From assembly GCA_000993565.1 (NCBI GenBank), contig LBWK01000001.1, positions 492,208 to 556,207 on the forward strand: a DNA stretch of 64,000 nucleotides, in the 5' to 3' direction. Origin of the DNA: a candidate division WS6 bacterium GW2011_GWF2_39_15. Its GTDB lineage: Bacteria > Patescibacteriota > Dojkabacteria > SC72. The notes under the pieces were generated by a model. That model saw nothing but the letters and a program-made list of their open reading frames with translations, was not told where the DNA came from and made no database searches. The position numbers and the translations under genes are program-made. Every line of letters starts with the position of its first letter. Within the stretch, counting starts at the first letter, position 1. Positions 2,742-58,902 of this stretch are shown piece after piece.

Positions 2742-2818
2742 TGGTGGGGGTGGGCGGAATCGAACCGCCGACATCGGCTTTATAAGAACCGCGCTCTAAC
2801 CGACTGAGCTACACCCCC
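2742..2818 (-). tRNA. tRNA-Ile with anticodon UAU (TAT in DNA), CCA encoded
   Basis: Reverse complement GGGGGTGTAGCTCAGTCGGTTAGAGCGCGGTTCTTATAAAGCCGATGTCGGCGGTTCGATTCCGCCCACCCCCACCA folds as a 77-nt cloverleaf. It has a 7-bp acceptor stem, D-arm GCTC/GAGC, anticodon stem CGGTT/AGCCG, loop CTTATAA and T-arm GGCGG-TTCGATT-CCGCC. The body resembles bacterial tRNA-Ile. Confidence 0.75.
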
Positions 2819-2875: not shown

Positions 2876-5419
2876 TTATCGCAGAGTCAAAGGAGGTGCC
2901 CCGTCTCCACCTGCTGAAGCTCCTTCAGGAGTAGCAAGATCTGCTCTCTGATTAATCTCCTGCTCCACAACTTTAACATCTCTACCATATTTAAGCCTCG
3001 ATAAATCCTTTATCTTCTTTGAAATCTCTTTATTCACAGGCAGTTCAAATCCTGACTGAGGATAGTTAGGCCCGTAAGAAGAATCAAGGGAGAATGGAGA
3101 TGGATACTTACCATCACAGATAAGTTTTACATACCAGTGAAGGTTAGCCTGGTTCATAAGGTCATTAGCCGTAAATATCGGCTCGTATTGAGACTCCAAG
3201 AACTTAGCATCTTCCGGACCTGTTCTTGCAATCATCAAGGTTCCTACGTTACCGAAAATAGCTGCTTTAACATGCTCTTCCATCTGAGCAATGTACTGGT
3301 TGGCAACCGTAAGGTTGAGGCGATACTTTCTAGCTTCAGATAGAATGGAAGCAAACTCTTCCGTAGCAAAGTTCTGAAACTCATCAACATAGAAGAAGAA
3401 ATCCCTTCTCTCCTCTTCCGGAATATCTTCACGGGAAAGGGCTGCTGCTATCATTTTAGGAATAAGCAAAGTCCCCAGGAACTGCATATTCTCCTCACCG
3501 ATAAGACCTTTGGAAAGGTTAACAATAAGGATTTTTCCGCTATCCATAACCTCTCTCATATTAAATGAAGATTGTGACTGCCCTATAATATTTCTAACTG
3601 CAAGGTTGGTTACAAAACGGTCAAACTTGGAGGTAATATAACCCAGTGTCTCGGATTTGTGGAAGTCGCTTGTCTTGGCAATCTGGTCCGTCCAGAACCT
3701 CTTGACCATATCATCCTTAATCAAAGGCATCCATTTCTCATCCACCCACTTCTGATCGGTAAGAATACGGAGAACTTCAACAAAGGTAGATCCATGAACC
3801 GACATAGCAGTAAGCATTGCGTTACGAACCGACCTCTCAAGAATAGGTCCTACGATTCCCTGGTTATGAGGGTCAAACAGCTTTTTAAGAAGTCCTATAA
3901 ATCCATTAACGATCCTATGTTTATCCTGCTCATCCGTAAACTCCATGAGATTAAAACCGAACGGCCTCTCAAAGTCAGAAACGTCGAAATAGATAACATC
4001 CTCTGCCCTCTCATGCGGAATACGGTCCAGCACCATCTGTGCGGTCTGTCCGTGCGGATCTATAAAACATACTCCGTCCCCATTATAAATATCCTGCATT
4101 ATCATTCTCACCTGAAGCCATGATTTACCTGAACCTGTCTGTCCAAGAATATATGCATGTCTTCTTCTATCATCTCTCTTAAAACAGATTCTCTTTCTCT
4201 TTCCCCTAAAAATATTGTCGCCTATCCATACCGTATCCTTGGAGTTAACCTCTGAGCTTATCCAGTTGGCAGCAGGAGCTTCTTTGGCCAACAGCCAGTT
4301 TATATTAGGAGTAGTTATATTCTTGTTCGGGAAGTGATACAGCGAAGCCAGCTCTTCAATATTTAGAATAGAGCCACTCTTCAACGGCATTCTTCTGAAT
4401 ATAACATCATTCATAAAATCCCTACCCTTAAGCTTGTTAAGTTTCTCTTTCTTAAACTCATTAATACCAGGGTTAGCAAACTGATCAAACGCCCCCACAA
4501 TATTATTCAAGTGCATATTAGCGATCTCAATATCAGATGCAGCTGTAACTATTCTTATTGCTGTCCTAAAACCAATCTTAGAAGTCTTTTTACTAATTGC
4601 CTGAAGCTGTTCCTGACTTACTCCAATCCTCTTTTTTTCAGGATCAGAGTTGGTTTCCTCAACTCTTTGAACAAACTTTCTGCCATTCTTCTGCCACTTG
4701 CTCCCCGCTGGTGTTATTACAAGCTGAATCATAGCTCCCTCTTTATCCTCCATCTTGCTTAAAGTACTTAATACATTGGCAATTGGGTCACCGGAAAAAT
4801 CTTCTGCAACTTTCATAGGGTAGTACGACTCATCAGTTTGTACCAAACTTGCATATGCAACTTTGGAGTTCTCATCAAAAATATTGTACTCATCAGAAAC
4901 TTCTATCTGAGCTTCCTGATACGACCCAAGGATCTGTTTTTCAACCAGATCGGCAAGCTTCTTCGATGCATGAACGTAAAAACGTATTTCACCAGGAAGC
5001 CCTACTATTTCAAAGCTGATGCTATTACCCACAGTTAAATATTTCTGAATACCTTTCCCTATCCCGCCGATTCCGTAAAGGTTGGCAAACATCTGTTCGG
5101 CAACTCCGACTTCAATCTCATTTCCTCTTGGCGCCCTAATCTCCATCAGTACTCCGCGGGAACTTTTCTCATCACGATCCTTTCTTTTAAGAAAATTGGA
5201 GTAGTAGTAGAGAAGAGCTAATACACTACCTACAACCATGGCAAGCACAAATATCCATGTAAAGACACTCAAAAAGGATACCCCAAAGGTGGAATCGTCG
5301 ATATTTGAATAAGAATCATCAGGATAATTAACACTTTCACCTGGGGTAACTTCACCAGGTTGAATAGGCCCAACAGTTTGCGAGTATATTAGGTTAGTAT
5401 AATCGAGAGCAGTTCGCAT
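2876..5419 (-). CDS. Type IV secretion system ATPase of the VirB4/VirD4 (TraC/TraG) superfamily, with an N-terminal membrane anchor
   Basis: 847 aa. The N-terminal hydrophobic stretch FGVSFLSVFTWIFVLAMVVGSVLALLYYY could be one or two TM helices. Walker A is YILGQTGSGKSW. The Walker B region FFFYVDEFQNF has a DEF motif of coupling-protein type; canonical VirB4 has DEAW. The size is closer to VirB4. Confidence 0.7.
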   Translation of the reverse strand: MRTALDYTNLIYSQTVGPIQPGEVTPGESVNYPDDSYSNIDDSTFGVSFLSVFTWIFVLAMVVGSVLALLYYYSNFLKRKDRDEKSSRGVLMEIRAPRGNEIEVGVAEQMFANLYGIGGIGKGIQKYLTVGNSISFEIVGLPGEIRFYVHASKKLADLVEKQILGSYQEAQIEVSDEYNIFDENSKVAYASLVQTDESYYPMKVAEDFSGDPIANVLSTLSKMEDKEGAMIQLVITPAGSKWQKNGRKFVQRVEETNSDPEKKRIGVSQEQLQAISKKTSKIGFRTAIRIVTAASDIEIANMHLNNIVGAFDQFANPGINEFKKEKLNKLKGRDFMNDVIFRRMPLKSGSILNIEELASLYHFPNKNITTPNINWLLAKEAPAANWISSEVNSKDTVWIGDNIFRGKRKRICFKRDDRRRHAYILGQTGSGKSWLQVRMIMQDIYNGDGVCFIDPHGQTAQMVLDRIPHERAEDVIYFDVSDFERPFGFNLMEFTDEQDKHRIVNGFIGLLKKLFDPHNQGIVGPILERSVRNAMLTAMSVHGSTFVEVLRILTDQKWVDEKWMPLIKDDMVKRFWTDQIAKTSDFHKSETLGYITSKFDRFVTNLAVRNIIGQSQSSFNMREVMDSGKILIVNLSKGLIGEENMQFLGTLLIPKMIAAALSREDIPEEERRDFFFYVDEFQNFATEEFASILSEARKYRLNLTVANQYIAQMEEHVKAAIFGNVGTLMIARTGPEDAKFLESQYEPIFTANDLMNQANLHWYVKLICDGKYPSPFSLDSSYGPNYPQSGFELPVNKEISKKIKDLSRLKYGRDVKVVEQEINQRADLATPEGASAGGDGAPPLTLR

Positions 5420-6513: not shown

Positions 6514-8841
6514 CTAGTTGATATTCACCTTCCAAACTACTGTGCCATCCAGAATATATGCCTGATTCTCCTGAGAATCTACAACCAGGTCTGCAACATT
6601 TTTAAAAGCCTCCTTCTGATCACCACGGTATTGGTACTCATTTATAAGAACCATTTCGTTAGGATGTCTCAGATCTCCTCCTCCTTCTTTCGGTTTTTCG
6701 AACACCAGCATTCTATTCTTCTCCCCTGACTCAAAGACATAAAGAAGGTTATCAAGCGTAGCCCCCGTATAACCAGCAATCGGACTCTCTACTTCCGGAA
6801 TTGGCCCCGATACCGTCACAGGAGACTTATCAACCTTCCCAGTGCCGTAGTTATATGAGAACCTTTCCAGTCCAGTTGTTAAGACATATATTGCCAAATC
6901 CCCGAAGAAATCCTGGGAACCGACAAAAGTATCGGAAGAGATATACACAAAAGGAAGTGAGTATCCCCCACCTGTGAAAGTAGCTTTGTATATTGCCTTT
7001 TCAGATTGGCTCAAGAGATAGATATTATCATTCTGAGTAAATACAGCAAACTCAGCCACCGTCCCTACACCCAAATCATCAGCCCCCAAACCAGTGAGAG
7101 ATTGGAAGTCTTTGTTATTTCTATTGTTATCAAACTGAGATCTTACTACCCCTGCTACGTCATCATAAACATAGACCCCTTTTGCTCCTATATCAACAAA
7201 TCTCGGTGACTGAAGAACTCCATCCTTATCCGGCAGTTTTGTAACCTTTTTGTCAAAAAGATTTATTTTATACACAGCCTTTAAACCATTATCAACTACG
7301 TAGAGAAACTCGTTTTGGAACTCATCCTTGTCAGTGGTAATATCACTCGGTTTAGATTCTGAACCTAAAGCAATGCGAGTGCTCATAAACGTCTCTATGC
7401 TACCATCTTTTTCACTTACCCAAATCCTTTTGGATACCTTATCATCAATTTCTGATAGCTGAGATTTAATCTCATTCAACTTTTTCCCATCGGTAACAGA
7501 CAACTCCTTCCCAGCCAGTTTCTTAAGTTCCTCATTTGACTGGAAAAGATAATTCTCTGCTGATTCCACATCAGCAGGTAGGCTTGATTCTGCCTGCTTA
7601 ACAAGGCTATCTACCGTACTAAATACTGCATTTGCCGTCTTACTCAATTCCCGAGCTTCTTTCGCTTGGATACTCAACTTCACACCTCCTAACACCACAA
7701 CAACGAGAAGGACAAGAAGAATGATAATCCCAAATCTCTTGCCTCTCACTCCCGATTCCCTGTACCCATCAATCTTCATCCCATACGCTGACTGGCCGCC
7801 AGTAAGTTTCATAGCTGACAATTTGGCTTTAATTCGTTTGTACCAAAGCTTTCTCCCATACTTATCATCAAACAGCCTCCAAAGCACCTGCCCCAACCTA
7901 TCAAACAATCTTTGAACAAACTTTCCAACCGGTGAAACAATTAGAAGAATAGCGTTCCACACCTTCAAAAGGATGTTTCTCACCTTTCCCCAGATATCAA
8001 CGACCTTAACCCTAAAAGCCTCCCATTTTTCTTTGTCAAATTTGGGCATTGAGATTCTTCCGATTCTCAACACAGGCTTCTTTTCAATTGGATCCGAACT
8101 AACGGCTATCTCTGAAGCCACTTCATCTGCTTTAACCTCTTCTACCTCTGCCTCCTGAGGTGTTGAAATTACTTGTTCAACGGGAGCGGCTACTTCTTCA
8201 ACCTCAGGTTCTTCTTCATAAAACTGAGCACGGGAGAGTATTAAAAGTCCTTCACCTGGGCTCAAATGATCTGACAATTTTTCTAACCTTCCCGTCCATT
8301 CTTCACCCGTAATTTTACCCACAAAAGAGCTGAATAGTCCCTGAGAACTTATAATGACCTTATCATTCTGCCCTAATGCAAAACTCCCTGCTACAACCCT
8401 ATTTTTATTTAATATCTCTGATATATTTACAAAGTTCTCCCCTTTGTTCACAAATACTTCCTGCTCTCCAAAAACTCCTAGATACGCAGTAGCGTTCTTC
8501 ACGGCAACAATGCCGAAGCTTAAATCTATACCCTCTTCCTGAACCTTTCTGTCGTTTTTTAAAAGCTCAAGAAGTTTTTTAGAACCGGCCGTTATTGATC
8601 TTTTAACATCTTCAGTAGTTGAAGCCGAATTGGAAGCGGAGTACGTTTCGAGAATCGCCTCCCATACGAATTTTAAGGCAGTAGAAGCATAACCTTCGGG
8701 GGTTTTGGAAACGGTTATAAGAGCATACAACTCTCCTTTTGCCATAGCAGCTTTCCGATCTGTTGGAGCATATTTATACACATTGCTAACGGCCTGAGTA
8801 TCTACATCATCACTGATGTATCTCTTTACATATAAGGGCAT
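6514..8841 (-). CDS. Hypothetical membrane protein: about 380-aa cytoplasmic N-terminal domain, one TM, coiled coil, C-terminal beta-propeller-like repeats
   Basis: 775 aa. TM is FGIIILLVLLVVVVLGGV. The C-terminal third shows repeated blades of the pattern Y-V-x-D...K-x-V-Y-K (YVVDNGLKAVYKINL, VYVYDDVAGVV, IYLLSQSEKAIYKATF, IYVLTTGLERFSY, LYVFESGEKNRMLVF, AYILDGTVVWKVN). Confidence 0.55.
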   Translation of the reverse strand: MPLYVKRYISDDVDTQAVSNVYKYAPTDRKAAMAKGELYALITVSKTPEGYASTALKFVWEAILETYSASNSASTTEDVKRSITAGSKKLLELLKNDRKVQEEGIDLSFGIVAVKNATAYLGVFGEQEVFVNKGENFVNISEILNKNRVVAGSFALGQNDKVIISSQGLFSSFVGKITGEEWTGRLEKLSDHLSPGEGLLILSRAQFYEEEPEVEEVAAPVEQVISTPQEAEVEEVKADEVASEIAVSSDPIEKKPVLRIGRISMPKFDKEKWEAFRVKVVDIWGKVRNILLKVWNAILLIVSPVGKFVQRLFDRLGQVLWRLFDDKYGRKLWYKRIKAKLSAMKLTGGQSAYGMKIDGYRESGVRGKRFGIIILLVLLVVVVLGGVKLSIQAKEARELSKTANAVFSTVDSLVKQAESSLPADVESAENYLFQSNEELKKLAGKELSVTDGKKLNEIKSQLSEIDDKVSKRIWVSEKDGSIETFMSTRIALGSESKPSDITTDKDEFQNEFLYVVDNGLKAVYKINLFDKKVTKLPDKDGVLQSPRFVDIGAKGVYVYDDVAGVVRSQFDNNRNNKDFQSLTGLGADDLGVGTVAEFAVFTQNDNIYLLSQSEKAIYKATFTGGGYSLPFVYISSDTFVGSQDFFGDLAIYVLTTGLERFSYNYGTGKVDKSPVTVSGPIPEVESPIAGYTGATLDNLLYVFESGEKNRMLVFEKPKEGGGDLRHPNEMVLINEYQYRGDQKEAFKNVADLVVDSQENQAYILDGTVVWKVNIN

Positions 8842-10877: not shown

Positions 10878-12752
10878 CTACTTTTTCTCGATATTTATAA
10901 ATGTTACTCCACTTCCCTGTGGCGGAATCTGGAGATAACCAGGAGCCCGAAGATTATACATAGCCTTGAAATCCGATGCGGATACGGTTAGAACTCCCCT
11001 ATTTGTCCCAAACAATATATTTGTGGTCTGCCCTTTGCTATTAAACGATGCGGCGATCGAAGAGACAACCGTAACAGGACTCTTAAGAAGTGAAGCCAAT
11101 GCCTCTTTTGAATAAGGATTTCCACTCATTCCTGATATGTGACAGTCATTGATGGTAACCGGAATTATTCTTGAATAATCTACACTACCTTTCAACGGAT
11201 CATTATTATTAATAAGCCAGACATTTAGTATATCCGCCATCTCTTTGTTAGAAAGATAATTCCTATTATTCCCCGTTACATCTTTCTTCGAAGAGTTACA
11301 TACCGACCCATTAAGGAGGGTTGACCATGTTTTGTAAAACCAGGGACTATTGCCATAATTAACCCCTTCATAAGCATTGGGAGTCCAGTTACCCGTCCCC
11401 TGCTTATTTGTAGTATCCCATCCGGAAGTATTTAAATACCCTCCCGTAGTAGAAGAAAACTGAAAGTTTCCAGGACCGCCAGCCAATACCCATTTACTAG
11501 TATAATCTACGGCATTCCTCCATGCGGTAGCATTTACCTCCTTTTTGACTACCTGACAGCTTTGACTTGGACATATTGTCGGGCCTCCGCACTCCTTATG
11601 TGTGCTCGAATATCTAATTGCATAACTCCTTGCCGCAACAGACTGTGCTCTAAGAACCTCTGTCGGCCAGCTTGCAGGGACCTCATACAGGTGTTTTACA
11701 TAATCATCAATTGAAAAAGCCTGACAATTAAAAGTCTGTCCATATTCATTAGTTCCGTTAACATATATCTTAGAGGGGACGCCGTAGTTTTTATTCAGTG
11801 TTTCAGCCGGATAGTATGCTTTCAAAATCTGCTCGGCATTCTGCCCGGCTTTTGCCCTTCCATACGCCCCGTACTGGCTCATGCCATTTCTATGCGTGTA
11901 CGCACCAAAAGCAAAAACAGCAAAATTTCCGGAGGCAGCATTTGCCATGAATCCACTTTTTGAGGAAAGGTTATCTGCAGCTCCAGGCACATCACCGACT
12001 CCAAGTATTCCCCCTGCCGCTTTTGCTAGTAGAATCGCCTCTTGAAGCTGAGATATTTCCCCTTTTAAGGCGGTGATATCCGTACCTAGTCTTGTAGATA
12101 ATCCCCGTTTTTTGGACGCCTCTGCGAGCAGTGCATTACGCTGAGCCACCAGATCATTCTTAGACTTTTCCAAACCATTCTTCTCGCTTTCCAAATCTAC
12201 CTTATCCTTTTCTAATTCCATCTTCTCCTGCTTCATTTGTGCATAATTCTGAGAGAGAAGTTTCAGTTTATCAACGTAATCAAAACCGGAAAGTTTTCTA
12301 AGAAAAACCCCTTTTATTATATCCTCCACACTTTTATTCGCTAGTATATATTCCCAAAAACTGAACCGTGAGCTTTTATACAATTGGGCAGCTACGAGAT
12401 CGAGCTTCTCCTGTTCCTTAGATAGCTCACCTTCTTTTTGGGAAATAACATCAGATTTCAGTTTAATTTCTAACTGTGCAGACTTAATATACAAATCAAT
12501 CTCATCTAAAGCATCTTTCATAAGGGAGATCTTTTCATCAACACTCACACTGCTTCTATTTATCTCCGCAATCTCCTTTTTTATCTTATCCAACGCACTC
12601 TCCTTCTCTTTAACCGTCTGACTTTTCTCCTGGACTTCTTGCTCAAGATCATCTATATCTTCCGAGTATATAGGAAAGGAATATACGGTTAATGAATAGA
12701 TCAAGATAATAACAAGCGAGAGGACAGTTTTAATCGTCTTACTTACACACAT
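10878..12752 (-). CDS. Secreted or anchored coiled-coil protein with a C-terminal SpoIID/LytB-type domain (peptidoglycan lytic transglycosylase-like)
   Basis: 624 aa. N-terminal signal/TM (VLSLVIILIYSLTVYS), then about 230 aa of heptad coiled coil. The C-terminal domain carries FAFGAYTHRNGMSQYGAYGRAKAGQNAEQILKAYYP and VAARSYAIRY, matching SpoIID/LytB motifs. Confidence 0.7.
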   Translation of the reverse strand: MCVSKTIKTVLSLVIILIYSLTVYSFPIYSEDIDDLEQEVQEKSQTVKEKESALDKIKKEIAEINRSSVSVDEKISLMKDALDEIDLYIKSAQLEIKLKSDVISQKEGELSKEQEKLDLVAAQLYKSSRFSFWEYILANKSVEDIIKGVFLRKLSGFDYVDKLKLLSQNYAQMKQEKMELEKDKVDLESEKNGLEKSKNDLVAQRNALLAEASKKRGLSTRLGTDITALKGEISQLQEAILLAKAAGGILGVGDVPGAADNLSSKSGFMANAASGNFAVFAFGAYTHRNGMSQYGAYGRAKAGQNAEQILKAYYPAETLNKNYGVPSKIYVNGTNEYGQTFNCQAFSIDDYVKHLYEVPASWPTEVLRAQSVAARSYAIRYSSTHKECGGPTICPSQSCQVVKKEVNATAWRNAVDYTSKWVLAGGPGNFQFSSTTGGYLNTSGWDTTNKQGTGNWTPNAYEGVNYGNSPWFYKTWSTLLNGSVCNSSKKDVTGNNRNYLSNKEMADILNVWLINNNDPLKGSVDYSRIIPVTINDCHISGMSGNPYSKEALASLLKSPVTVVSSIAASFNSKGQTTNILFGTNRGVLTVSASDFKAMYNLRAPGYLQIPPQGSGVTFINIEKK

Positions 12753-12777: not shown

Positions 12778-13098
12778 CTAGTTTCCGAGGAAGTCCAATA
12801 TCAGCTTTAATACACCGCTGAACAGGACAAGAAAGATTAATCCTAATATAGCCCAAGTTAAAGTTCCCTGAGCCTGTTTAACTTTCCCGGGATCACCTGA
12901 AGACATCATCCACATATAACCACCGTAAACAACCATTATCAAAGAGATTAAGGATCCGATAGGGATTAGAAGCTTAAAAACGCTATCAAGAATCCCTCCG
13001 ATCTCGTCTAATCTGGGAGGTGCTGCATATACCGCGTCTGGGACTAGTACCATTGAAAAGAGTGTTAATGAGGTTATAAATCCTTTAATCTTTTTCAT
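12778..13098 (-). CDS. T4SS pilin-like small membrane protein, paralog 5
   Basis: 106 aa. Signal peptide (cleavage near VYA/AP) plus two TM helices. Shared motif YGGYMWMMSSGDPGKVKQAQGTLTWAILGL. Start overlaps the upstream stop at 13098. Confidence 0.6.
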   Translation of the reverse strand: MKKIKGFITSLTLFSMVLVPDAVYAAPPRLDEIGGILDSVFKLLIPIGSLISLIMVVYGGYMWMMSSGDPGKVKQAQGTLTWAILGLIFLVLFSGVLKLILDFLGN

Positions 13099-13376
13099 TA
13101 TAATTGACCCAGTACATTATTTAAAATAAAGCGGATAATAAGGGGAGATATAAATACTATAATCAATCCTATCATAGCGTATATCACAGACTTCTGAGCT
13201 TTCTCAATCTTCCCCTCGTCTCCTACTGATAGTATATACTGAATTCCGGCACTCACCAATACTGCCACGGTAATTAATGCTGAAATCATTATAGCTAGAT
13301 TGAGAGTTCCCTTGACCATATCAATCAATGAACTATACCCCGTATTGTTAAGGGCAGACAGGTCAAAGAGATTCAT
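13098..13376 (-). CDS. T4SS pilin-like small membrane protein, paralog 4
   Basis: 92 aa. Motif AGIQYILSVGDEGKIEKAQKSVIYAMIGL. Confidence 0.6.
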   Translation of the reverse strand: MNLFDLSALNNTGYSSLIDMVKGTLNLAIMISALITVAVLVSAGIQYILSVGDEGKIEKAQKSVIYAMIGLIIVFISPLIIRFILNNVLGQL

Positions 13377-13436
13377 AATAGAGAGAATAAAAATAAGAGG
13401 CAGGAGAGTTTCCCCTCCTGCCTTCCGATTACAACG

Positions 13437-13853
13437 TTAGACTTTCAAAAGCTGTGAAAGTACGAAGTTTACAACCAATACTGAGACAAAACATAGAACC
13501 AGTCCGACAATTGCATATGTAATACCCTTTGTTGCTTTCTCAATCTTTCCATCATCACCAGAAGCAACAATGTACTGAACACCGCTATAAACCAATACAC
13601 CAACAGCAATCAATGCTGCGAGGGCAATTGCAAGGTTTAATGCATTCTTGATAAATCCAATAAGATCGTTACCATTACCTGATGTTACAATTCCATCAAC
13701 AAATCCACTTGCGCTACTTGCTGCCATTACTGTTGCTGCGGCAAAGTATAAAGCTGATCCTAATGTGGATACTGTTGCTCCTACTTTTGTTACTACCTTC
13801 GCTAATTTATTCATTGTTACTACTAATAAAATTAATATGTTATAGGTTGACAC
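13437..13853 (-). CDS. T4SS pilin-like small membrane protein, paralog 3. The likely true start is the internal Met (MNKLAKVV), around 13814
   Basis: 138-aa ORF. Motif YSGVQYIVASGDDGKIEKATKGITYAIVGL. Confidence 0.6.
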   Translation of the reverse strand: MSTYNILILLVVTMNKLAKVVTKVGATVSTLGSALYFAAATVMAASSASGFVDGIVTSGNGNDLIGFIKNALNLAIALAALIAVGVLVYSGVQYIVASGDDGKIEKATKGITYAIVGLVLCFVSVLVVNFVLSQLLKV

Positions 13854-13885
13854 ATTATATTATATGCAGTACCAATCTGCAATAG

Positions 13886-14224
13886 CTAGACCTTTAATAC
13901 TTCGGTTAAAACAAAGATTATTATCATCTTAGCTACGAATATGATGATCATACCTACAATTGCGTTTGTAATAATTTTTTGAGACTGGTCTATTTTATCC
14001 GGATCTCCTGCTGCTGTAATCATAAGAATCCCTCCATATACAAGCAGTCCTACCAACACCAGAGCAGAGAGATTCACAGCGGTATTCACAACTGTCTGAA
14101 CCTTTCCAACCGTTCCCTCTACTGTCGTAAAAGAATCGCTTCCAAAAGGATTACTGATACCAAACCAACTGGCAAAGAGGCCCCCCTTTTTCTCTACATA
14201 CTTTTTTATCTCATTAATTTTCAT
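13886..14224 (-). CDS. T4SS pilin-like small membrane protein, paralog 2. Its N-terminal region is atypically non-hydrophobic
   Basis: 112 aa. Motif YGGILMITAAGDPDKIDQSQKIITNAIVGM. Confidence 0.55.
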   Translation of the reverse strand: MKINEIKKYVEKKGGLFASWFGISNPFGSDSFTTVEGTVGKVQTVVNTAVNLSALVLVGLLVYGGILMITAAGDPDKIDQSQKIITNAIVGMIIIFVAKMIIIFVLTEVLKV

Positions 14225-14242
14225 TTATATCCTATTAAAATA

Positions 14243-14596
14243 TTAAGGATTTAAACCCGGAATATTTAATGTATTCCTTATTAACAATAGTATAGCAACT
14301 GAAAGAGCAATTAAAGCGAATCCAATAACCGCATTAGTAACGACCTCTCTTGCTTCATTCAGCTTCTCTGGATCACCCTGGCTGGTAATCATGTTATATC
14401 CTGCAAACGCAAAGAGAATAATTGCAGAAAGAACCCCCAGCGGAATTGCAAGCTTGACTAAAGCATTTACAAGTGACGGCAGATCCTGAGCATTGGTGAC
14501 CTCTGTAACGTTTCCGGATATCGCATTACTCAACGCATCCGCATAAACAGGCGAAGAAATTGCGTGAAAGATTTTTTCGAGTATGCTCTGTATCAT
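14243..14596 (-). CDS. T4SS pilin-like small membrane protein, paralog 1
   Basis: 117 aa. Motif FAGYNMITSQGDPEKLNEAREVVTNAVIGF. Confidence 0.55.
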   Translation of the reverse strand: MIQSILEKIFHAISSPVYADALSNAISGNVTEVTNAQDLPSLVNALVKLAIPLGVLSAIILFAFAGYNMITSQGDPEKLNEAREVVTNAVIGFALIALSVAILLLIRNTLNIPGLNP

Positions 14597-14618
14597 ATTA
14601 TTAACAACGAATTATACA

Positions 14619-17606
14619 CTACAGAATAGCCTCTTCACAAACATCCTGATAATCGCAGTACATACAATGATGGGATTTAGGGATAGTGAAATCCCCGCTC
14701 CTGATCTTAGCAACGATTCCCTTGATCTTTTTAACCACATTATCTCTTCTCCTTGGCGTAATGCTTATATCCACTTTCTTCCCGTGCTCTACAAATACAT
14801 AGGATGCTTTATCTACTTTCAACCCCCATAACTCTTCGGCTACAATAGCGTAGAAAACCAGCTGCCAATTTGTATTGGCTTCCTTTTGTGATTTAGCCTT
14901 TCCCGTTTTATAATCCATAATCTCTACATGCCTAACCCCATCCTTAACCTCCAGCAAATCTATTCGGTCCACCTTTCCTAAGATTCTAAAATCAGCCATT
15001 CCAAACTTAAAACTTTTCTCTAAAAAGATCGGCCTTTCCTTTCCGGTATGGAACTCATCAAAAAATCTCTCTAGACCCATTCTCCCATACTCCAGCCTCT
15101 TCTTCTCATGTTCTCTTGATTCATACCCTTCAGACTGCCAGTATGTCTCGTACAAGTTAAGAAGCTCTTCTTTTGTAGGTTTCTCGATAAAACCTTCAAG
15201 GCCCTCAAGTGATGCCATCTGTTTTTCATAGAAGGTTCGGAGCGTGTTATGCACTGTATTTCCAAAAGACAGTGCTGAGTTCGGAGGAAGAGGAATTTTA
15301 AGAATGTAGCTGTATTTATACTGACGGGGACACATTTCATAGGAAGCAATCTGTGAATAGCTGAACTGGTTACTCACCTCAATTCCGGCTTTCTTGTAAT
15401 CTATAATGTCCGAGTTATCCTGCCTCTGAAAGATTTGAAACTCAGCGCTTCCTTCCTCTCCTTTGATAAGTTTAAGATCTTCATTTACATCCCTCCCGAG
15501 TGTCTCACTTAGAAATCCGCTCACCTTTCTAACTCTGCCTGCCCCGCTATATGACTGGGCAGCACTCAAGTATAGTTTATCCTTTGCCCTCGTCATACCG
15601 ACATAAAAGAGTCTTCTCTCTTCCTGTATATGTTCATCTACCTGATTGTCCTCCGGGATCACTTCCTTAATCAGATCATCAGGGATTGATAACCTTTCAA
15701 ACTTAGCACGGGTAGGGAATCTCTCATCAACAAGATTAACAAGAAATACAACAGGAAACTCCAGTCCCTTAGCTCCGTGTACTGTCATAATATTTACTCC
15801 GTCAAAATCCAGAAAGGCCTCTCCGTTCACGCTGGGGTTTTCCCCAATTTCAAGGCTGTAATCAAGGTAGTCAAGATAGTCGTAGATTGTTGCTCCGGGA
15901 TTATTTCTTTCAAACTCCTTAAGCATTTCAAAGTATTTACGAATATTCTCAACCCTAAACAGGTTTTTAGCAGACTCTTCCTTTACCAGATAGTCCTTCC
16001 AGCCGCTTTTATCAAAAAACTCAAAAAGTATCTGCCCTACCCCACGCCCTTCCTTTACCAGTTCAAAACTCTTATTTACCAATTTCACAATTTTATTGAT
16101 AGACGTTAAGGCCTCATTACCCAACTTTCTCCTTATTATCTCCCCTCCTTCATTTTTATCCACAACATCTTCAAAAAGTGTAAACACAGGAATATGCTTA
16201 AACCGGGCATACCTCATAATTTCAACCACTTCACGGGCACTAAGTGACCATACCGGCATACTTAAAATGTTAAACATGGAAACACTATGACTATAGTCAA
16301 CAACGAGACGAAGATACGACATTAGTACTTTGACTTCGTCCGTATTGTAAAGGCCTTTATACCCCCCAAACTTATACGGGATTCCGTTAAACCTCAATGC
16401 CTGCACAAAGTCATCACTCTGAGCATTGGCACGTACCAAAATCGCGATATCCGAGAAAGAGTACTTACTTTGTTTCTTTATCAGATCTAAAATCTCCTTT
16501 GCCACTAAATCCGCCTCACCTGAGCCGGACTGTGCAAGCAGAAGCTTCACACAGTCTTTTTCGCCTTTCTCATTATCTGCCTTTGCAATTAACCTTTTAC
16601 TTACCTGTTCAGTTACTTCCAGCCTATACGGATTATTGTTCTGAATTAGCCTATATGAGTTATCCAGAATTTCCTGTTTTGAACGGTAGTTCTCAGTTAG
16701 AACCACACGTTTAGCCGTTGGATACAGTTTCTTAAACTGAAGGATATTGGAAATAGCCGCTCCCCTGAACTTATATATTGACTGGTCGTCATCCCCTACA
16801 ACTGTAACATTGGCTTTGTTTGTATTAATCTTCTTTCCCTTCTCCGTATCCTCTCCAAGAGCCAGCATATTCACAAGCACATTCTGTGTATAGTTGGTGT
16901 CTTGAAACTCATCTACGAGAATATATTTAAACTTTTCGTGATATTTCTTGAGAATATTAGGCCTTTCTCTAAACAGCCTAAGAACAGTATTAATCAGGTC
17001 GCCAAAATCCAGTTTAGATTCCTTAAGTTTAAGCTCGGTAAAGAACTTATAGGTATTGGAAAGTTCCACCGCCTGTCTCTTATTCAGAGATTCCTCAACA
17101 CTCTCTGCCTTTAAGCTATTCGCATACTTAATATAATCATCAGGGGTAACATCTTCGTCCTGCAAACGGGAAAAATGGTTGAGAATCTGAGATATAAAGC
17201 CGCTGGGGTTGCCAAGAGGACGGAATATATCGAGCGGCATTTCGAATATATGCTTTCGAAATAGCATATACCCTTCGGCTTCAGTCATAAGCTTGAAGTT
17301 GGGATTAAGACCAATAAATATACCTTCCTGTTTAAGAACCTTGTCACAAAAGGAATGGAATGTTGATATCCAAACCTCCTCATAACCGTATGGCATTTCA
17401 ACATCTACCCTCTCCAGCATCTCTTTGCACGCTTTTTCAGTAAAGGTGAGAGCGAGAATCTCAGAGGCTTTTGCCCAGTCCTTCCTCATTATATTGACCA
17501 TTCTCTGCGTGATTACTGCTGTTTTTCCGGTACCAGCACCGGCAATAATAAGAAGAGGACCGGATTTGTGCTCTATAGCCTCCTGCTGAGATTTGTTTAA
17601 TTCCAT
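14619..17606 (-). CDS. UvrD/PcrA-family SF1 helicase fused to a C-terminal RecB/Cas4-type PD-(D/E)xK nuclease with a 4Fe-4S cluster (AddAB-like single-chain helicase-nuclease)
   Basis: 995 aa. Walker A is AGAGTGKT. UvrD motifs are present (TFTEKA, VDEFQDT, VGDDDQSIY, TVHGAKGLEF). The C-terminus has a lone Cys (CPRQY), a D...IMDYKTGK nuclease core, and HCMYCDYQDVC (C-x2-C-x5-C). Confidence 0.85.
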   Translation of the reverse strand: MELNKSQQEAIEHKSGPLLIIAGAGTGKTAVITQRMVNIMRKDWAKASEILALTFTEKACKEMLERVDVEMPYGYEEVWISTFHSFCDKVLKQEGIFIGLNPNFKLMTEAEGYMLFRKHIFEMPLDIFRPLGNPSGFISQILNHFSRLQDEDVTPDDYIKYANSLKAESVEESLNKRQAVELSNTYKFFTELKLKESKLDFGDLINTVLRLFRERPNILKKYHEKFKYILVDEFQDTNYTQNVLVNMLALGEDTEKGKKINTNKANVTVVGDDDQSIYKFRGAAISNILQFKKLYPTAKRVVLTENYRSKQEILDNSYRLIQNNNPYRLEVTEQVSKRLIAKADNEKGEKDCVKLLLAQSGSGEADLVAKEILDLIKKQSKYSFSDIAILVRANAQSDDFVQALRFNGIPYKFGGYKGLYNTDEVKVLMSYLRLVVDYSHSVSMFNILSMPVWSLSAREVVEIMRYARFKHIPVFTLFEDVVDKNEGGEIIRRKLGNEALTSINKIVKLVNKSFELVKEGRGVGQILFEFFDKSGWKDYLVKEESAKNLFRVENIRKYFEMLKEFERNNPGATIYDYLDYLDYSLEIGENPSVNGEAFLDFDGVNIMTVHGAKGLEFPVVFLVNLVDERFPTRAKFERLSIPDDLIKEVIPEDNQVDEHIQEERRLFYVGMTRAKDKLYLSAAQSYSGAGRVRKVSGFLSETLGRDVNEDLKLIKGEEGSAEFQIFQRQDNSDIIDYKKAGIEVSNQFSYSQIASYEMCPRQYKYSYILKIPLPPNSALSFGNTVHNTLRTFYEKQMASLEGLEGFIEKPTKEELLNLYETYWQSEGYESREHEKKRLEYGRMGLERFFDEFHTGKERPIFLEKSFKFGMADFRILGKVDRIDLLEVKDGVRHVEIMDYKTGKAKSQKEANTNWQLVFYAIVAEELWGLKVDKASYVFVEHGKKVDISITPRRRDNVVKKIKGIVAKIRSGDFTIPKSHHCMYCDYQDVCEEAIL

Positions 17607-24615: not shown

Positions 24616-25095
24616 ATGAACAAGACGCTCAAACTCGTAATTCTAGTACTTGCTACATTGGTAGTCTTCGGAGGGGCCTTTTTATACTTGTCCCGAGATT
24701 CTAAAGAGCCTCCGAAAGAAGAAGGGAAAAAGACAGAAGATATCACAGAGCCGATTCAAGAAAAACCTGTAAACAAGTTGTGTGACTGGGTTGATGATTC
24801 TGACATCATTATCAAAATAAACTTCGCGGAAGGTGTTGAGAAAGAAAACTCCTACGAAGCGGGTTTCTATTTCAGTCCGATTATATCCACTATGCGAGTA
24901 GCGAGAAAAGAATGTGATTATAGAACAGGTTTTTCATTCACAGAGCTAAAAGGGAAAACTGCCGCAGACGTTGGAGTTAGGAACTACTCAGATAATACAA
25001 GAAGAAAACTGATTGGGGAACCTATTGATGTCAATTTCGATTCAAATGGGGTACCAAATATAGGGACTAGCATTGAGGTAACTATTGCAAACTAG
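24616..25095 (+). CDS. Hypothetical secreted or anchored protein
   Basis: 159 aa with an N-terminal TM/signal (LVILVLATLVVFGGAFLYL). Confidence 0.45.
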   Translation: MNKTLKLVILVLATLVVFGGAFLYLSRDSKEPPKEEGKKTEDITEPIQEKPVNKLCDWVDDSDIIIKINFAEGVEKENSYEAGFYFSPIISTMRVARKECDYRTGFSFTELKGKTAADVGVRNYSDNTRRKLIGEPIDVNFDSNGVPNIGTSIEVTIAN

Positions 25096-25150
25096 GTAGA
25101 AAGCAGGATTATACTCCCTTACTAATATCTCCGTTTTACTTTTATTAAGT

Positions 25151-25759
25151 TTGAGGTATATTGTCAGTATACATATATATAATAAAAGGATTATGAAGAA
25201 ACTATTAGTAACTCTTTCCTTCTTTTTTATTATCTTTCTTACCCCTACTCCGCTACATGCAGTAGACAAAATGGTATTTGATTCTACTGATAACTACCTT
25301 GGGGGCTGCCAGTTAACAGATGAATCCGAATGGGAATTAACAAAAGATTTATCTGTTACTACTTTTCAAATGTGGTATAGATGGACAGAAGGAGAGACTT
25401 CCTTACCAATAACTGTTTATAAAGACGGAAAGGAATTTGCAAAATTTGATGCAAAAAGAAGCTCTTGTGACCCATATCAACAACAGTGGTGCAATGCTGA
25501 TTATGTAATGAATAAAACGTTTCCTAAAGGAAAATATTCTACGAAAATTGACAAGGAACAGCAGTGTTTAAAACCTGGTAGCACAGGAACAATCCGTCTA
25601 TATGGAGCGGAAGCAACTACGACATCAACATCTTCTACAAAATCTACTTCATCTTGCAAACAATCGATCGTATTACCAATCGTATTAACAGCGGTGGTAT
25701 CATCAGCACTGACAATAGCGATTCCTCGAATGATATCGAAAAAGAGATCGGCACAATAG
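25151..25759 (+). CDS. Hypothetical secreted protein with a Ser/Thr-rich stalk and a C-terminal TM anchor
   Basis: 202 aa. Signal peptide ending ...TPLHA; ATTTSTSSTKSTSS; C-terminal helix IVLPIVLTAVVSSALTIAI. Confidence 0.45.
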   Translation: MRYIVSIHIYNKRIMKKLLVTLSFFFIIFLTPTPLHAVDKMVFDSTDNYLGGCQLTDESEWELTKDLSVTTFQMWYRWTEGETSLPITVYKDGKEFAKFDAKRSSCDPYQQQWCNADYVMNKTFPKGKYSTKIDKEQQCLKPGSTGTIRLYGAEATTTSTSSTKSTSSCKQSIVLPIVLTAVVSSALTIAIPRMISKKRSAQ

Positions 25760-25809
25760 AGAAGATATCAGTTAAGAGGAATCTTTCTTCTGATGCTCTA
25801 TAATATCCT

Positions 25810-26724
25810 ATGGAATTACCCTCTCATCTTAAATCTCTATACTCTCACCTCCTCAAACATACTATTAAACCTACAAAAGATTTAAGTTTCAATTTCGACA
25901 ATGATCTGTATAAATCCATCATCACTTTCTCTAATGAGCGAATGAGGATATATGAGAATAAATCCCAAGGTTTAAAACCTCCCTATACCTATAATCCCAT
26001 ACTAAAGGAGTTTAGATTCTGTAATATTTACAGAGAATTGGATAAACAAACAATAGACTTTCACACTCTACTAAAACCTTATGTAAATGATCTTCCTCAC
26101 TGGTTGTTAAATATGCTTTTATGCAGATTTATATGTAAACCTGAAACCATTGAAGAGATCGGGTTACTGAGTTTCGATGAGAAAAACAACGCAAAGGTAT
26201 ATGAAAAACTTCTTTCACTCCCCTCTCCCAAGTATGGCAGTGCATATATCTTTCCTATTTCTCTAATTCAAAAATCCAATCATAATACCAGGGAGAAGTT
26301 CTTCTGTTTCTATCTTCCAGAAATTGTTCACAAAGTATCTGACGTTATAAGAATGTTTAAAGATGTATCCGTAATTAATGCCCTTGAAAAAATCCTTCCT
26401 ATATTCAAATATAACTTCAAATTTCACTGGACAGAGGTATTAATAGATATTGCATATCAATATCCTGATTACATAGATCTTTTTAAAAGATTTCCCATAG
26501 GTCCGGGCTCTCTACCTACAATGAAAAGGTTGAATAGTTCAAAACATCCTGAAGATGTATGCCTGGATCTTGTATCAACGGTTCCCAGTAATTTTGAGTA
26601 CCTTACATACAATGGAATACCTCTATATTTAAGTGCAGAAAACTGGGAGGGAATTGGCTGCGAATATAGGAAGTATACAAATCTTAAAGAAGGTAAAGGG
26701 AGAAAGAGAAAATATATAGTATAA
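25810..26724 (+). CDS. Hypothetical protein with no recognised family. First gene of a five-gene plus-strand cluster
   Basis: 304 aa, soluble. Conserved-looking blocks FRFCNIYRELDKQT, YGSAYIFPISL and RFPIGPGSLPTMKRL. Confidence 0.5.
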   Translation: MELPSHLKSLYSHLLKHTIKPTKDLSFNFDNDLYKSIITFSNERMRIYENKSQGLKPPYTYNPILKEFRFCNIYRELDKQTIDFHTLLKPYVNDLPHWLLNMLLCRFICKPETIEEIGLLSFDEKNNAKVYEKLLSLPSPKYGSAYIFPISLIQKSNHNTREKFFCFYLPEIVHKVSDVIRMFKDVSVINALEKILPIFKYNFKFHWTEVLIDIAYQYPDYIDLFKRFPIGPGSLPTMKRLNSSKHPEDVCLDLVSTVPSNFEYLTYNGIPLYLSAENWEGIGCEYRKYTNLKEGKGRKRKYIV

Positions 26725-26726
26725 TA

Positions 26727-27954: not shown

Positions 27955-27967
27955 ACTTCAGAAAAAT

Positions 27968-58825: not shown

Positions 58826-58902
58826 ATAACTAAAAACCTAAAAATTAAAATCATCGGGGCTTTTATCTAGTATACAATGTGTACGGGGAGGGGTAAAGGG
58901 AC

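What the first reader, a model, noticed from the sequence alone, without database searches (positions are those of the whole stretch)
12778..14596. Five tandem, translationally coupled, divergent T4SS-pilin-like paralogs
Five small genes (92-138 aa) lie back-to-back with stop/start overlap. Each encodes a signal peptide, two TM helices and the same central motif [Y/F]-x-G-x-x-[Y/M]-[I/M]-x-[S/A/T]-x-G-D-x-x-K-[I/L/V]-x-x-[A/S]-x-x-x-[I/V]-x-x-A-[I/M/V]-[I/V]-G-[L/F/M]. Outside the motif they differ strongly. Unlike paralogs 5, 4 and 1, paralog 2 lacks a hydrophobic leader. An array of this kind suggests either a heteropolymeric filament with major and minor subunits, or subunit switching/antigenic variation.
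Basis: seen in the sequence. Interest (0 to 1): 0.65.

Follow-up and report, generated by a model that had tools for sequence, protein, structure and literature searches.

The report
Conserved five-gene T4SS pilin array
Five small neighbouring genes in a Dojkabacteria (WS6, Patescibacteria/CPR) chromosome encode divergent VirB2-like type IV secretion pilins, a kind of gene array already described for this phylum; the new detail here is that it is a fixed, ancient five-member set in which the middle gene looks like the major subunit.

Summary
The five minus-strand ORFs exist at the stated coordinates. Some details are wrong:
- Only one of four junctions overlaps.
- The strict motif fits 3 of 5 genes.
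- Only two paralogs have a canonical signal peptide.

The window is candidate division WS6 (Dojkabacteria) GW2011_GWF2_39_15. Tandem arrays of 2-11 divergent VirB2-like pilins are already published for Patescibacteria, and one is essential in Southlakia epibionticum. I therefore rate this a new member of a known kind.

What this work adds:
- The genes form five orthogroups kept one-to-one and in the same order in most related lineages examined, with copy number varying from four to six. Orthologs are 46-86% identical and paralogs 19-43%. The three lineages tested show purifying selection.
- No DNA repeats link the paralogs, which argues against recombination-driven variation.
- The middle gene (13437..13814) has its own TTGNNN-N17-TATAAT promoter-like site in 9 of 9 lineages. 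A GC hairpin plus T-run terminator follows it in 8 of 9. This suggests a major subunit flanked by four minor or specialised ones.
- One paralog is conserved without a leader and starts where its relatives' mature N-terminus begins.

No pilus has been observed, and no VirB4 was found among the ORFs scanned in the window.

The parts
14243..14596 (-). P5: first pilin paralog, 117 aa. Short weak leader MIQSILEKIFHAISSPVYA|DALS, two TM helices, conserved C-terminal NIPG(L/I)NP.
   Evidence: ORF. PF18895 34.7 bits, cutoff 26.6. Orthologs 46-86% identical in 6 loci. The more distant orthologs in L009, L011 and L012 carry a clear hydrophobic signal peptide ending A|D.
13886..14224 (-). P4: second pilin paralog, 112 aa. 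Lysine-rich N-terminus, then the conserved FASWFGISNPFGSDSF segment, then two TM helices.
   Evidence: PF18895 40.2 bits. Own orthogroup. N-terminal segment conserved.
13437..13814 (-). P3: third pilin paralog, 125 aa from the ATG at 13814 (the maximal ORF runs to the GTG at 13853). Canonical signal peptide, variable G/S/N-rich mature N-terminus, highly conserved helical hairpin. Proposed major subunit.
   Evidence: PF18895 48.5 bits, the best of the five. The database entry P0001 is 125 aa and 100% identical. AF2 hairpin block-mean pLDDT 86-96. It has its own promoter-like site and terminator. Its exposed N-segment is the least conserved, 0.42 against 0.77 for the core.
13098..13376 (-). P2: fourth pilin paralog, 92 aa, leaderless. 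Sister to P3. It starts at the alignment column where the mature N-terminus of P3-type proteins begins.
   Evidence: PF18895 37.1 bits. No hydrophobic N-terminus. Alignment A3. Leaderless in the L001, L003, L007, L010 and L011 orthologs. The gene is absent from L005/L006. The related L009 copy has a signal peptide.
12778..13098 (-). P1: fifth pilin paralog, 106 aa. Canonical Sec signal peptide (..AVYA|APPRLDE) and a highly conserved mature N-terminus. Its start overlaps the P2 stop (TAATG).
   Evidence: PF18895 44.5 bits and PF04956 TrbC 28.4 bits, cutoff 27.9. Orthologs also carry precomputed PF04956 hits. Conservation of the N-segment is 0.89.
14611..14640 (-). Promoter-like site TTGTGA-N18-TATAAT. 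It overlaps the 3' end of the helicase gene and lies 15 nt upstream of the P5 start.
   Evidence: 10 of 12 matches. The same element lies upstream of P5 in L001, L003, L007 and L009.
13854..13882 (-). Promoter-like site TTGCAG-N17-TATAAT, 40 nt upstream of the P3 ATG.
   Evidence: The pattern TTGNNN-N16-18-TATAAT occurs only 1-6 times per locus on this strand. In 9 of 9 lineages one copy ends 38-47 nt upstream of the P3 start. Sequence read, alignment.
13388..13423 (-). Intrinsic-terminator-like hairpin (11-bp stem, 7 GC pairs) plus T-run. It starts 14 nt after the P3 stop and ends about 11 nt before the P2 start.
   Evidence: Fold energy -22.1 kcal/mol, z = -3.74, 0 of 200 shuffles as stable. 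A hairpin with T-run sits at the same place in 8 of 9 lineages, with different stem sequences. It is absent in L012.
10878..12752 (-). SpoIID/LytB-domain protein with a long coiled coil, 624 aa, 25 nt downstream of P1. Candidate cell-wall-remodelling partner (VirB1 analogue).
   Evidence: PF08486 at 45.8 bits. TIGR02669 at 81.2 bits, just under its 83.3 cutoff. It lies downstream of the array in every locus whose sequence reaches that far, sometimes after one extra ~200-aa gene. The functional link is inferred.
2876..5419 (-). VirD4/T4CP-like ATPase, 847 aa, 7.4 kb downstream. It is the only other T4SS-type gene found in the window.
   Evidence: PF02534, PF10412 and PF12696 above their cutoffs. 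Best NCBIfam match is the VirD4-like CD1115 family, sub-threshold. It is syntenic in L001.

Best explanation
The region is a chromosomal array of five VirB2-like (Pfam PF18895) type IV secretion pilin paralogs. The host is a Dojkabacteria (candidate division WS6, Patescibacteria/CPR) bacterium. It is one instance of the tandem pilin arrays already described for this phylum.

Shown here:
- All five genes are real genes of this family. Each encodes a helix-loop-helix membrane hairpin with a conserved GDxxK loop.
- They form five distinct orthogroups that are kept one-to-one and in the same order in most related Dojkabacteria lineages examined. One lineage lacks P2 and one has six genes in a partly different order.
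- The three lineages tested show purifying selection on all five genes.

Inferred mechanism: the five are non-redundant parts of one T4SS-associated filament or conduit that crosses the single-membrane envelope.
- P3 has its own promoter-like site and is followed directly by a terminator hairpin, so it is probably the abundant major subunit.
- P5 and P4 would be transcribed from the promoter-like site at the end of the helicase gene.
- P2 and P1 have no TATAAT upstream, so they are probably made only by terminator read-through. The P2/P1 pair is translationally coupled.
- P5, P4, P2 and P1 would therefore be low-abundance specialised subunits, for example initiator, tip or adaptor.
- The conserved loop would face the lumen or the assembly machinery. 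The paralog-specific N-termini would be the exposed parts.
- The leaderless P2 would enter the membrane without signal-peptidase processing.
- The SpoIID-type enzyme downstream may open the cell wall.
For: Family:
- PF18895 scores are above the cutoff for all five, and PF04956 for P1.
- There are sub-threshold hits to the Mycoplasma ICE pilin-like family NF045849 on all five.
- Hydropathy and the AF2 model both give a two-helix hairpin.

Organism: exact matches to WS6 GW2011_GWF2_39_15 genes UT34_C0001G0491-0494. The syntenic relative is a Ca. Dojkabacteria MAG.

Stable five-member set:
- 120 homologs split cleanly into five groups.
- Arrays were read in L001, L003, L005, L007, L009, L010, L011, L012 and one JGI contig.
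- Orthologs are 46-86% identical and paralogs 19-43%.
- In the three lineages compared (window, L001, L007), synonymous sites are saturated (pS 0.57-0.87) while pN is 0.09-0.27.

Transcription layout:
- The promoter-like pattern lies 38-47 nt upstream of P3 in 9 of 9 lineages, although it is rare elsewhere.
- A terminator hairpin follows P3 in 8 of 9 lineages with non-identical stems.
- No TATAAT lies within 60 nt upstream of P2 or P1 in any locus examined.

Surface-exposure pattern: the mature N-segment of P3 is the least conserved, while those of P1 and P4 are highly conserved.

Literature: essential pilin series in the S. epibionticum T4SS cluster (PMC10633639). 441 arrays of 2-11 pilins with mean identity 25% (PMC12102498).
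Against: - No VirB4, VirB6 or VirB3 gene was found among the ORFs scanned in the 64-kb window. Linkage to a T4SS core is seen only in the relative L009.
- The profile of the family does not match any solved structure by sequence.
- Profile comparison with A. tumefaciens VirB2 is not significant (probability 1.4%).
- Foldseek against the PDB gives no significant hit, because a helical hairpin is too simple a fold to discriminate.
- 'Pilin' is therefore a family label, not a demonstrated function, and no T4SS pilus has been seen in this phylum.
- The major/minor assignment rests on consensus promoter and terminator signals only, with no expression data.
- L012 lacks the hairpin.
- Three of the five leaders are non-canonical, so membrane topology is uncertain.
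Confidence: 0.62

Rival explanations
1. The paralogs are alternative, interchangeable filament subunits. They would be used one at a time or in different mixes to vary the exposed surface, for host-range adaptation or evasion. This is the role proposed for Bartonella trwL and Anaplasma virB2 paralogs.
For: - Strong divergence outside the core.
- This is the interpretation offered for Patescibacteria arrays in PMC12102498.
- In the relative L009, two P3-type copies have an identical C-terminal ~78 aa but different N-termini. That is the pattern expected of surface variation.
- Copy number varies from 4 to 6 between lineages.
Against: - The five are stable one-to-one orthogroups in a fixed order in most lineages, not lineage-specific expansions.
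- All five are under purifying selection in the lineages tested.
- The N-termini of P1, P4 and P5 are conserved rather than variable.
- There are no DNA repeats longer than 21 nt between paralogs and no inverted repeats around the promoters, so there is no substrate for recombination or inversion.
- There are no further pilin-motif copies or silent cassettes in the window.
Confidence: 0.15
2. The proteins are not filament subunits. They would be membrane-embedded parts of a monoderm-type T4SS channel, or of another envelope machine. In that case they stay in the cytoplasmic membrane as hairpins and 'pilin' is a misnomer.
For: - Gram-positive-type T4SSs generally lack pili (PMC10633639, PMC12857230).
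- Sub-threshold similarity to a Mycoplasma ICE 'pilin-like' conjugal transfer protein from a wall-less monoderm.
- No significant similarity to solved pilins.
- Three of the five lack a canonical cleavable leader.
- No VirB4 was found nearby in this genome window.
Against: - P1 and its orthologs pass the TrbC/VirB2 model.
- A dedicated promoter plus terminator around one gene is what is expected of a structural protein needed in bulk.
- A wall-remodelling SpoIID-type gene is always adjacent.
Confidence: 0.2
3. The genes belong to an unrelated small-membrane-protein family such as holins, or the ORFs are chance open frames.
For: They are small two-TM proteins next to a cell-wall hydrolase-like gene, which superficially resembles a holin-lysin pair.
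Against: - No holin family hit appears in Pfam or NCBIfam at E <= 1.
- All five pass PF18895.
- The context is chromosomal and housekeeping, about 45 kb from dnaA, with no phage genes.
- There are 211 homologs with E <= 0.001, and the orthologs tested show purifying selection.
Confidence: 0.02

Closest known systems
Patescibacteria VirB2-like pilin arrays (Southlakia epibionticum ML1 T4SS cluster SEML1_0006-0019; Nanosynbacter lyticus TM7x 'Sec-secreted array'; 441 arrays surveyed by Quinonero-Coronel et al. 2025)
   Same: - Tandem, sequence-divergent PF18895/PF04956 pilin-like genes in a CPR chromosome.
- Within-array identity of 19-43%, against the published mean of 25% and maximum of 54%.
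- No relaxase in view, and a location in the origin-proximal part of the chromosome.
   Different: - The lineage is Dojkabacteria; the survey says arrays are most abundant in Microgenomatia and Saccharimonadia.
- No VirB4 was found among the ORFs scanned in the 64-kb window.
- The layout described here is not mentioned in the passages of those papers that I read: five fixed orthogroups, a promoter and terminator around the middle gene, a conserved leaderless member, and an adjacent SpoIID-type gene.
- Essentiality is untested here.
Tandem VirB2 paralogs of intracellular diderm pathogens (Bartonella Trw trwL copies; Anaplasma phagocytophilum virB2 paralogs)
   Same: Several VirB2-type genes in a row, thought to give variant pilus surfaces (as summarised in PMC12102498).
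   Different: - Those are diderm alphaproteobacteria with classical MPF-T systems.
- Their variation is interpreted as antigenic or host-receptor diversity.
- Here the copies are ancient, individually conserved orthogroups with no recombination substrate.
Classical conjugative pilins: Agrobacterium VirB2, RP4 TrbC, F TraA (Pfam PF04956 and relatives)
   Same: Small size, an N-terminal leader in some members, two hydrophobic helices joined by a short lysine-bearing loop. P1 passes PF04956.
   Different: - Those are single genes next to virB3/virB4.
- Comparison with pTiC58 VirB2 shows no significant similarity.
- Four of the five genes here do not reach the PF04956 cutoff.
- Cyclisation and phospholipid co-assembly could not be tested.
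Mbov_0395 family pilin-like conjugal transfer protein of Mycoplasma ICEs (NCBIfam NF045849)
   Same: An ~80-residue two-helix core from a monoderm MPF-FATA-type system. All five proteins align over nearly the full model.
   Different: Scores of 22-37.5 bits are below the 40-bit cutoff, so the proteins are not members. In ICEs the gene is single-copy (my own knowledge, not tested here).

Membership tests
Pfam PF18895 T4SS_pilin | HMM score at or above the gathering cutoff (26.6 bits) | tested here: met
   Scores of 34.7, 40.2, 48.5, 37.1 and 44.5 bits for P5 to P1. Precomputed PF18895 hits on 120 homologs.
Pfam PF18895 T4SS_pilin | Two hydrophobic helices joined by a short polar loop, about 70-residue core | tested here: met
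   Hydropathy segments in all five. AF2 model of P3 with helices 50-83 and 88-122, block-mean pLDDT 86-96.
Classical VirB2/TrbC pilins (PF04956) | HMM score at or above the cutoff (27.9 bits) | tested here: inconclusive
   Only P1 passes, and marginally (28.4 bits). The other four are not reported at E <= 1. P1 orthologs also carry PF04956 hits.
Classical VirB2/TrbC pilins (PF04956) | Detectable homology to an experimentally characterised pilin | tested here: not met
   hhalign of the 89-sequence profile against pTiC58 VirB2 gives probability 1.4%, E 0.038. There is no PDB sequence hit below E 0.8. tblastn of P1 against 72,556 plasmids finds nothing.
Classical VirB2/TrbC pilins (PF04956) | Fold match to solved pilin subunits | tested here: inconclusive
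Classical VirB2/TrbC pilins (PF04956) | Cleavable N-terminal leader | tested here: inconclusive
   Canonical in P1 and P3, degenerate in P5, atypical in P4, absent in P2. These are heuristics only; SignalP was not available.
Classical VirB2/TrbC pilins (PF04956) | Encoded next to the T4SS core (VirB3/VirB4/VirB6) | tested here: not met
   No VirB4, VirB3 or VirB6 was found among the ORFs scanned in the window. A VirD4-like ATPase lies 7.4 kb away. In the relative L009 the array sits about 4 kb from PrgI-like, TraC-like and VirB4-like genes.
Classical VirB2/TrbC pilins (PF04956) | Polymerises into an extracellular pilus with bound phospholipid | not testable with these tools
   This needs microscopy or biochemistry.
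Patescibacteria VirB2-like pilin arrays (PMC12102498 definition) | Two or more PF18895/PF04956 genes in tandem, or separated by one gene, in a Patescibacteria genome | tested here: met
   Five in tandem. The genome is candidate division WS6/Dojkabacteria.
Patescibacteria VirB2-like pilin arrays (PMC12102498 definition) | High divergence within the array (published mean 25%, maximum 54% identity) | tested here: met
   21-43% within the window array.
Patescibacteria VirB2-like pilin arrays (PMC12102498 definition) | Required for epibiotic growth (shown for S. epibionticum) | not testable with these tools
   Tn-seq evidence exists only for Saccharibacteria (PMC10633639).
Recombination- or inversion-driven pilin variation systems | Repeated DNA (silent cassettes, near-identical copies, or inverted repeats around a promoter) | tested here: not met
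   Only 14-21-nt chance repeats at 76-93% identity, and no meaningful inverted repeats. There are no extra motif copies in the window.
Holins / other small membrane protein families | Significant HMM hit to such a family | tested here: not met
   All non-pilin Pfam and NCBIfam hits are far below their cutoffs, with E >= 0.005.

The most novel reading that the evidence does not exclude
The Dojkabacteria array encodes a fixed five-component T4SS filament in a single-membrane bacterium. One bulk subunit (P3) would be made from its own promoter-terminator unit. Four conserved low-copy subunits would accompany it, one of which is a 'pre-processed' pilin translated without a leader and inserted without signal peptidase. 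If so, this would give the first explicit subunit programme for the hypothesised Patescibacteria T4SS pilus and a concrete set of targets for testing how epibionts connect to hosts.
Probability: 0.3. Interest if true: 0.6.

Novelty: new member of a known kind. Interest (0 to 1): 0.3.

Why it matters
Patescibacteria are ultra-small, host-dependent bacteria. In the one genetically tractable species their T4SS, including a series of pilin genes, is essential for growth on the host. Yet nobody knows what the pilins build, or why there are several.

This locus does not change the picture as a class. It does show that in Dojkabacteria the multiplicity is a stable, selected five-part set with a likely major subunit, rather than a fast-evolving variation cassette. 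That narrows the hypotheses. It also names specific genes and sites to test: the promoter, the terminator, the predicted cleavage sites and the leaderless member.

Tried and rejected
- **Profile search of the family against PDB sequences** gave nothing below E 0.8.
- **hhalign against Agrobacterium VirB2** put the right helices in register but was not significant.
- **tblastn of P1 against PLSDB plasmids** found no match.
- **Accession BR000038 (R388)** is not in the plasmid collection.
- **Search for the T4SS core in the window:** three Pfam scans plus one NCBIfam scan of the neighbouring genes found only a VirD4-like ATPase.
- **Repeat search for recombination substrates or invertible elements** was negative.
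- **dN/dS:** synonymous sites are saturated for most pairs, so only pN against pS is reported.
- **Multiple alignment of the P3 upstream regions** is poor beyond the close relatives. The promoter argument therefore rests on pattern position, not on alignment.
- **A TTTAAA-N17-TATAAT match at 13125..13097** was rejected as a P1 promoter, because its -10 overlaps the P1 start codon.
- **The GTG at 13853 as the P3 start** was rejected.
- **Whether this exact genome is in the published survey** could not be settled, because the supplementary table is truncated. Dojkabacteria genomes are in that dataset.
Full report
**1. The observation**

Five ORFs lie on the minus strand at the coordinates given.

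| Name | Coordinates | Length |
|---|---|---|
| P5 | 14243..14596 | 117 aa |
| P4 | 13886..14224 | 112 aa |
| P3 | 13437..13853 | 138 aa at most |
| P2 | 13098..13376 | 92 aa |
| P1 | 12778..13098 | 106 aa |

What holds:
- Each protein has two long hydrophobic segments separated by a short GDxxK loop.
- The core motif G-x7-GD-xx-K-x10-A-xx-G is present in all five.
- GDxxK-x10-AxxG occurs exactly five times in the six-frame translation of the whole 64-kb window, only in these genes. The repetition is therefore real and there are no further copies.

What needs correction:
- Only the P2/P1 junction overlaps (TAATG). The other gaps are 18, 71 and 60 nt.
- The strict motif as written fits 3 of 5 genes.
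- P3 almost certainly starts at the ATG at 13814 (125 aa). The database entry and the orthologs have that length, and the GTG at 13853 directly abuts a conserved -10 hexamer.
- A canonical signal peptide is present only in P1 (..AVYA|AP) and P3 (..TVMA|AS).
- P5 has a short, weakly hydrophobic 19-aa leader with a conserved ..VYA|DAL site.
- P4 has a lysine-rich N-terminus followed by a conserved FASWFGISNPFG segment.
- P2 has no leader at all.

**2. What the genes are**

All five pass the Pfam PF18895 (T4SS_pilin) gathering cutoff, at 34.7-48.5 bits against 26.6. P1 also passes PF04956 (TrbC/VirB2), at 28.4 against 27.9. All five give sub-threshold, near-full-length matches to NF045849, the Mycoplasma ICE 'pilin-like conjugal transfer protein'. 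No holin or other small-membrane family comes close.

An AlphaFold2 model of P3, built with an 89-sequence alignment, has a low-confidence leader helix and a confident helix-loop-helix hairpin at residues 50-83 and 88-122, block-mean pLDDT 86-96.

The link to experimentally characterised pilins is weak:
- No PDB sequence hit.
- No significant Foldseek hit, because a hairpin is not a discriminating fold.
- A non-significant profile comparison with pTiC58 VirB2.
- No tblastn hit in plasmids.

'Pilin' is therefore a family label, not a shown function.

**3. Organism and context**

Four of the proteins (P5, P4, P3 and P2) are full-length identical to UT34_C0001G0491-0494 of candidate division WS6 bacterium GW2011_GWF2_39_15, an 868,911-bp contig. 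P1 matches only a truncated 91-aa ENA entry (P0033) at 100% identity. The closest other genome found is a Ca. Dojkabacteria MAG.

The window also holds:
- dnaA (59666..61114) and dnaN (57698..58825), about 45 kb from the array.
- A UvrD-type helicase with a PD-(D/E)XK nuclease domain, immediately upstream of the array (14619..17606).
- A SpoIID/LytB-domain coiled-coil protein immediately downstream (10878..12752).
- Further downstream: a 205-aa membrane protein, an 83-aa ORF whose orthologs in the related loci carry DUF5657, a 775-aa unknown, SmpB, and a VirD4-like ATPase at 2876..5419.

No VirB4, VirB3 or VirB6 was found in any ORF scanned in the window.

**4. Related loci**

A profile search found 211 homologs with E <= 0.001. 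The best 120 fall cleanly into five groups, each much closer to one window paralog than to the others.

I read nine independent arrays including the window (eight with DNA), plus one JGI contig seen as gene calls only:
- Every locus has the order helicase, then pilins.
- A SpoIID-domain gene follows in every locus whose sequence reaches that far, in some after one extra ~200-aa gene.
- Most have five pilins in the same order.
- L005/L006 have four and lack P2.
- L009 has six: two P3-type copies, plus a P2-like copy with a signal peptide. It also carries PrgI-like, TraC-like and VirB4-like genes about 4 kb away. This is the only direct link to a T4SS core.

Sequence comparison:
- Orthologs are 46-86% identical and paralogs 19-43%.
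- A neighbour-joining tree recovers the groups, with P2 sister to P3.
- Between the window, L001 and L007, synonymous differences are saturated (pS 0.57-0.87) while non-synonymous differences are 0.09-0.27. All five are therefore under purifying selection in these lineages.
- There are no DNA repeats between paralogs beyond 14-21-nt chance matches, and no inverted repeats around the promoters.

**5. Transcription signals** (the main new detail)

- The pattern TTGNNN-N16-18-TATAAT is rare: 6 times on this strand in 64 kb, and 1-5 times in each related locus.
- In 9 of 9 lineages one copy ends 38-47 nt upstream of the P3 start. In the window it lies at 13882..13854.
- A GC-rich hairpin followed by a T-run lies directly after the P3 stop in 8 of 9 lineages. 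The stem sequences differ, so the structure is conserved and the sequence is not.
- In the window the hairpin is at 13423..13398, with energy -22.1 kcal/mol, z = -3.74 and 0 of 200 shuffles as stable. L012 lacks it.
- A second promoter-like site (TTGTGA-N18-TATAAT, 14640..14611) precedes P5 in the window and in four relatives.
- No TATAAT lies within 60 nt upstream of P2 or P1 in any locus examined. In the window only about 11 nt separate the terminator's T-run from the P2 start.

The inferred units are [P5-P4], then [P3] plus its terminator, then P2-P1 by read-through (translationally coupled), then the SpoIID gene with its own TATAAT 5-9 nt before the start codon. All of this is inferred from sequence. 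There are no expression data.

**6. Conservation pattern**

The hairpin core is well conserved in every group (0.71-0.85). The mature N-terminal segment of P3 is the least conserved (0.42). Those of P1 (APPRLDEIGG, 0.89) and P4 are highly conserved. This fits an abundant, surface-exposed P3 and specialised partners.

P2 aligns so that its first residues fall at the column where the mature N-terminus of P3-type proteins begins. It looks like a P3-type pilin that is translated already 'processed'. How it reaches the membrane is unknown. Insertion of a short N-tail without a signal peptide is plausible from general knowledge of small membrane proteins, but it was not tested here.

**7. Mechanism**

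The best-supported reading is a T4SS-associated filament or conduit built from five non-redundant subunits, with P3 as the major one. The conserved loop would face the lumen or the assembly platform, and the paralog-specific N-termini would be exposed. The SpoIID-type enzyme is a candidate substitute for VirB1. The published survey notes that most Patescibacteria with VirB2 homologues lack VirB1.

Rivals:
- **Interchangeable variant subunits.** This is disfavoured by the orthogroup stability, the purifying selection and the lack of a recombination substrate. The L009 duplicate pair with different N-termini shows that some surface variation does occur.
- **Membrane-resident channel parts with no filament.** This is not excluded, since no pilus has been seen and monoderm T4SSs normally lack one.
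- **An unrelated family.** This is rejected.

**8. Comparison with what is known**

- Wang et al. 2023 reported a series of essential predicted pilins inside the S. epibionticum T4SS cluster (PMC10633639).
- Quinonero-Coronel et al. 2025 used PF18895 and PF04956 on 3,035 genomes. They found 441 arrays of 2-11 pilin genes with mean identity 25%, and discussed the Bartonella and Anaplasma parallels (PMC12102498). Dojkabacteria genomes are in their dataset.
- A 2025 review calls these arrays the exception to the rule that Gram-positive-type T4SSs lack VirB2 (PMC12857230).

The finding is therefore a new member of a known kind. The following are not mentioned in the passages of those papers that I read:
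- the fixed five-orthogroup organisation;
- the promoter-terminator unit around one gene;
- the conserved leaderless member;
- the conserved SpoIID neighbour.

**9. Verdict**

Novelty is low as a class, with modest new detail. Interest is 0.3.

Noticed in passing
window 10878..12752 (-): A 624-aa SpoIID/LytB-domain protein with a ~200-residue coiled coil lies downstream of the pilin array, here and in every related locus whose sequence reaches that far. A TATAAT lies 5-9 nt before its start codon in the window clade, which suggests a leaderless mRNA. It is a possible VirB1 substitute; the published survey found most VirB2-bearing Patescibacteria lack VirB1.
   Followed up: partly
window 14619..17606 (-): A 995-aa UvrD-type helicase fused to a PD-(D/E)XK/Cas4-like nuclease lies immediately upstream of the array in every Dojkabacteria locus read. 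The P5 promoter-like site overlaps its 3' end. Whether this reflects function or only synteny is unknown.
   Followed up: no
L009 7566..7922 and 8001..8351: Two adjacent P3-type pilin genes encode an identical C-terminal ~78 residues but different leaders and mature N-termini. This points to recent duplication or gene conversion with surface variation, in a lineage where the array also sits next to PrgI-like, TraC-like and VirB4-like genes.
   Followed up: partly
L005 6001..7518 and L006 4084..5601: This lineage has four pilin genes. The leaderless P2 is absent and only a 69-nt gap, carrying the terminator hairpin, separates P3 from P1.
   Followed up: partly
window 2742..2818 (-): A tRNA-Ile with anticodon UAU. 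This is uncommon in bacteria, which usually decode AUA with a lysidine-modified CAU tRNA (my own knowledge).
   Followed up: no
window 40855..41264 (-): A tmRNA (Rfam 122.5 bits) whose ARAGORN-predicted tag is AKNTVNTFLSKVQELGARLTSSLSFSYLG. The tag is unusually long and lacks the usual hydrophobic ..LAA-type end. The tag call may be wrong.
   Followed up: no
window 28838..36751 (-): A giant 2637-aa ORF with fibronectin type III, DUF2341 and glycine-rich domains. It lies in a stretch where GC rises to 0.48 against about 0.39 elsewhere. It is possibly a surface adhesin.
   Followed up: no
window 24616..28429 (+): A low-GC (0.34-0.36) block of plus-strand genes in an otherwise minus-strand region. 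It includes a 5-hmdU DNA kinase helical-domain protein (PF18723, 25810..26724) and a GDSL lipase. It is possibly an acquired island related to DNA modification.
   Followed up: no
window 2876..5419 (-): An 847-aa ATPase with VirD4/T4CP-type domains and an N-terminal ~400-residue region with no family match. It is separated from the pilin array by SmpB and several unknown conserved genes: a 775-aa protein, an 83-aa ORF whose orthologs carry DUF5657, and a 205-aa protein.
   Followed up: partly
window 57698..61114 (-): dnaN and dnaA lie here, with the cumulative GC-skew minimum near 62 kb. The window therefore contains the replication origin, and the array lies about 45 kb from it on the leading strand. 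This matches the published note that Patescibacteria T4SS genes are often origin-proximal.
   Followed up: partly
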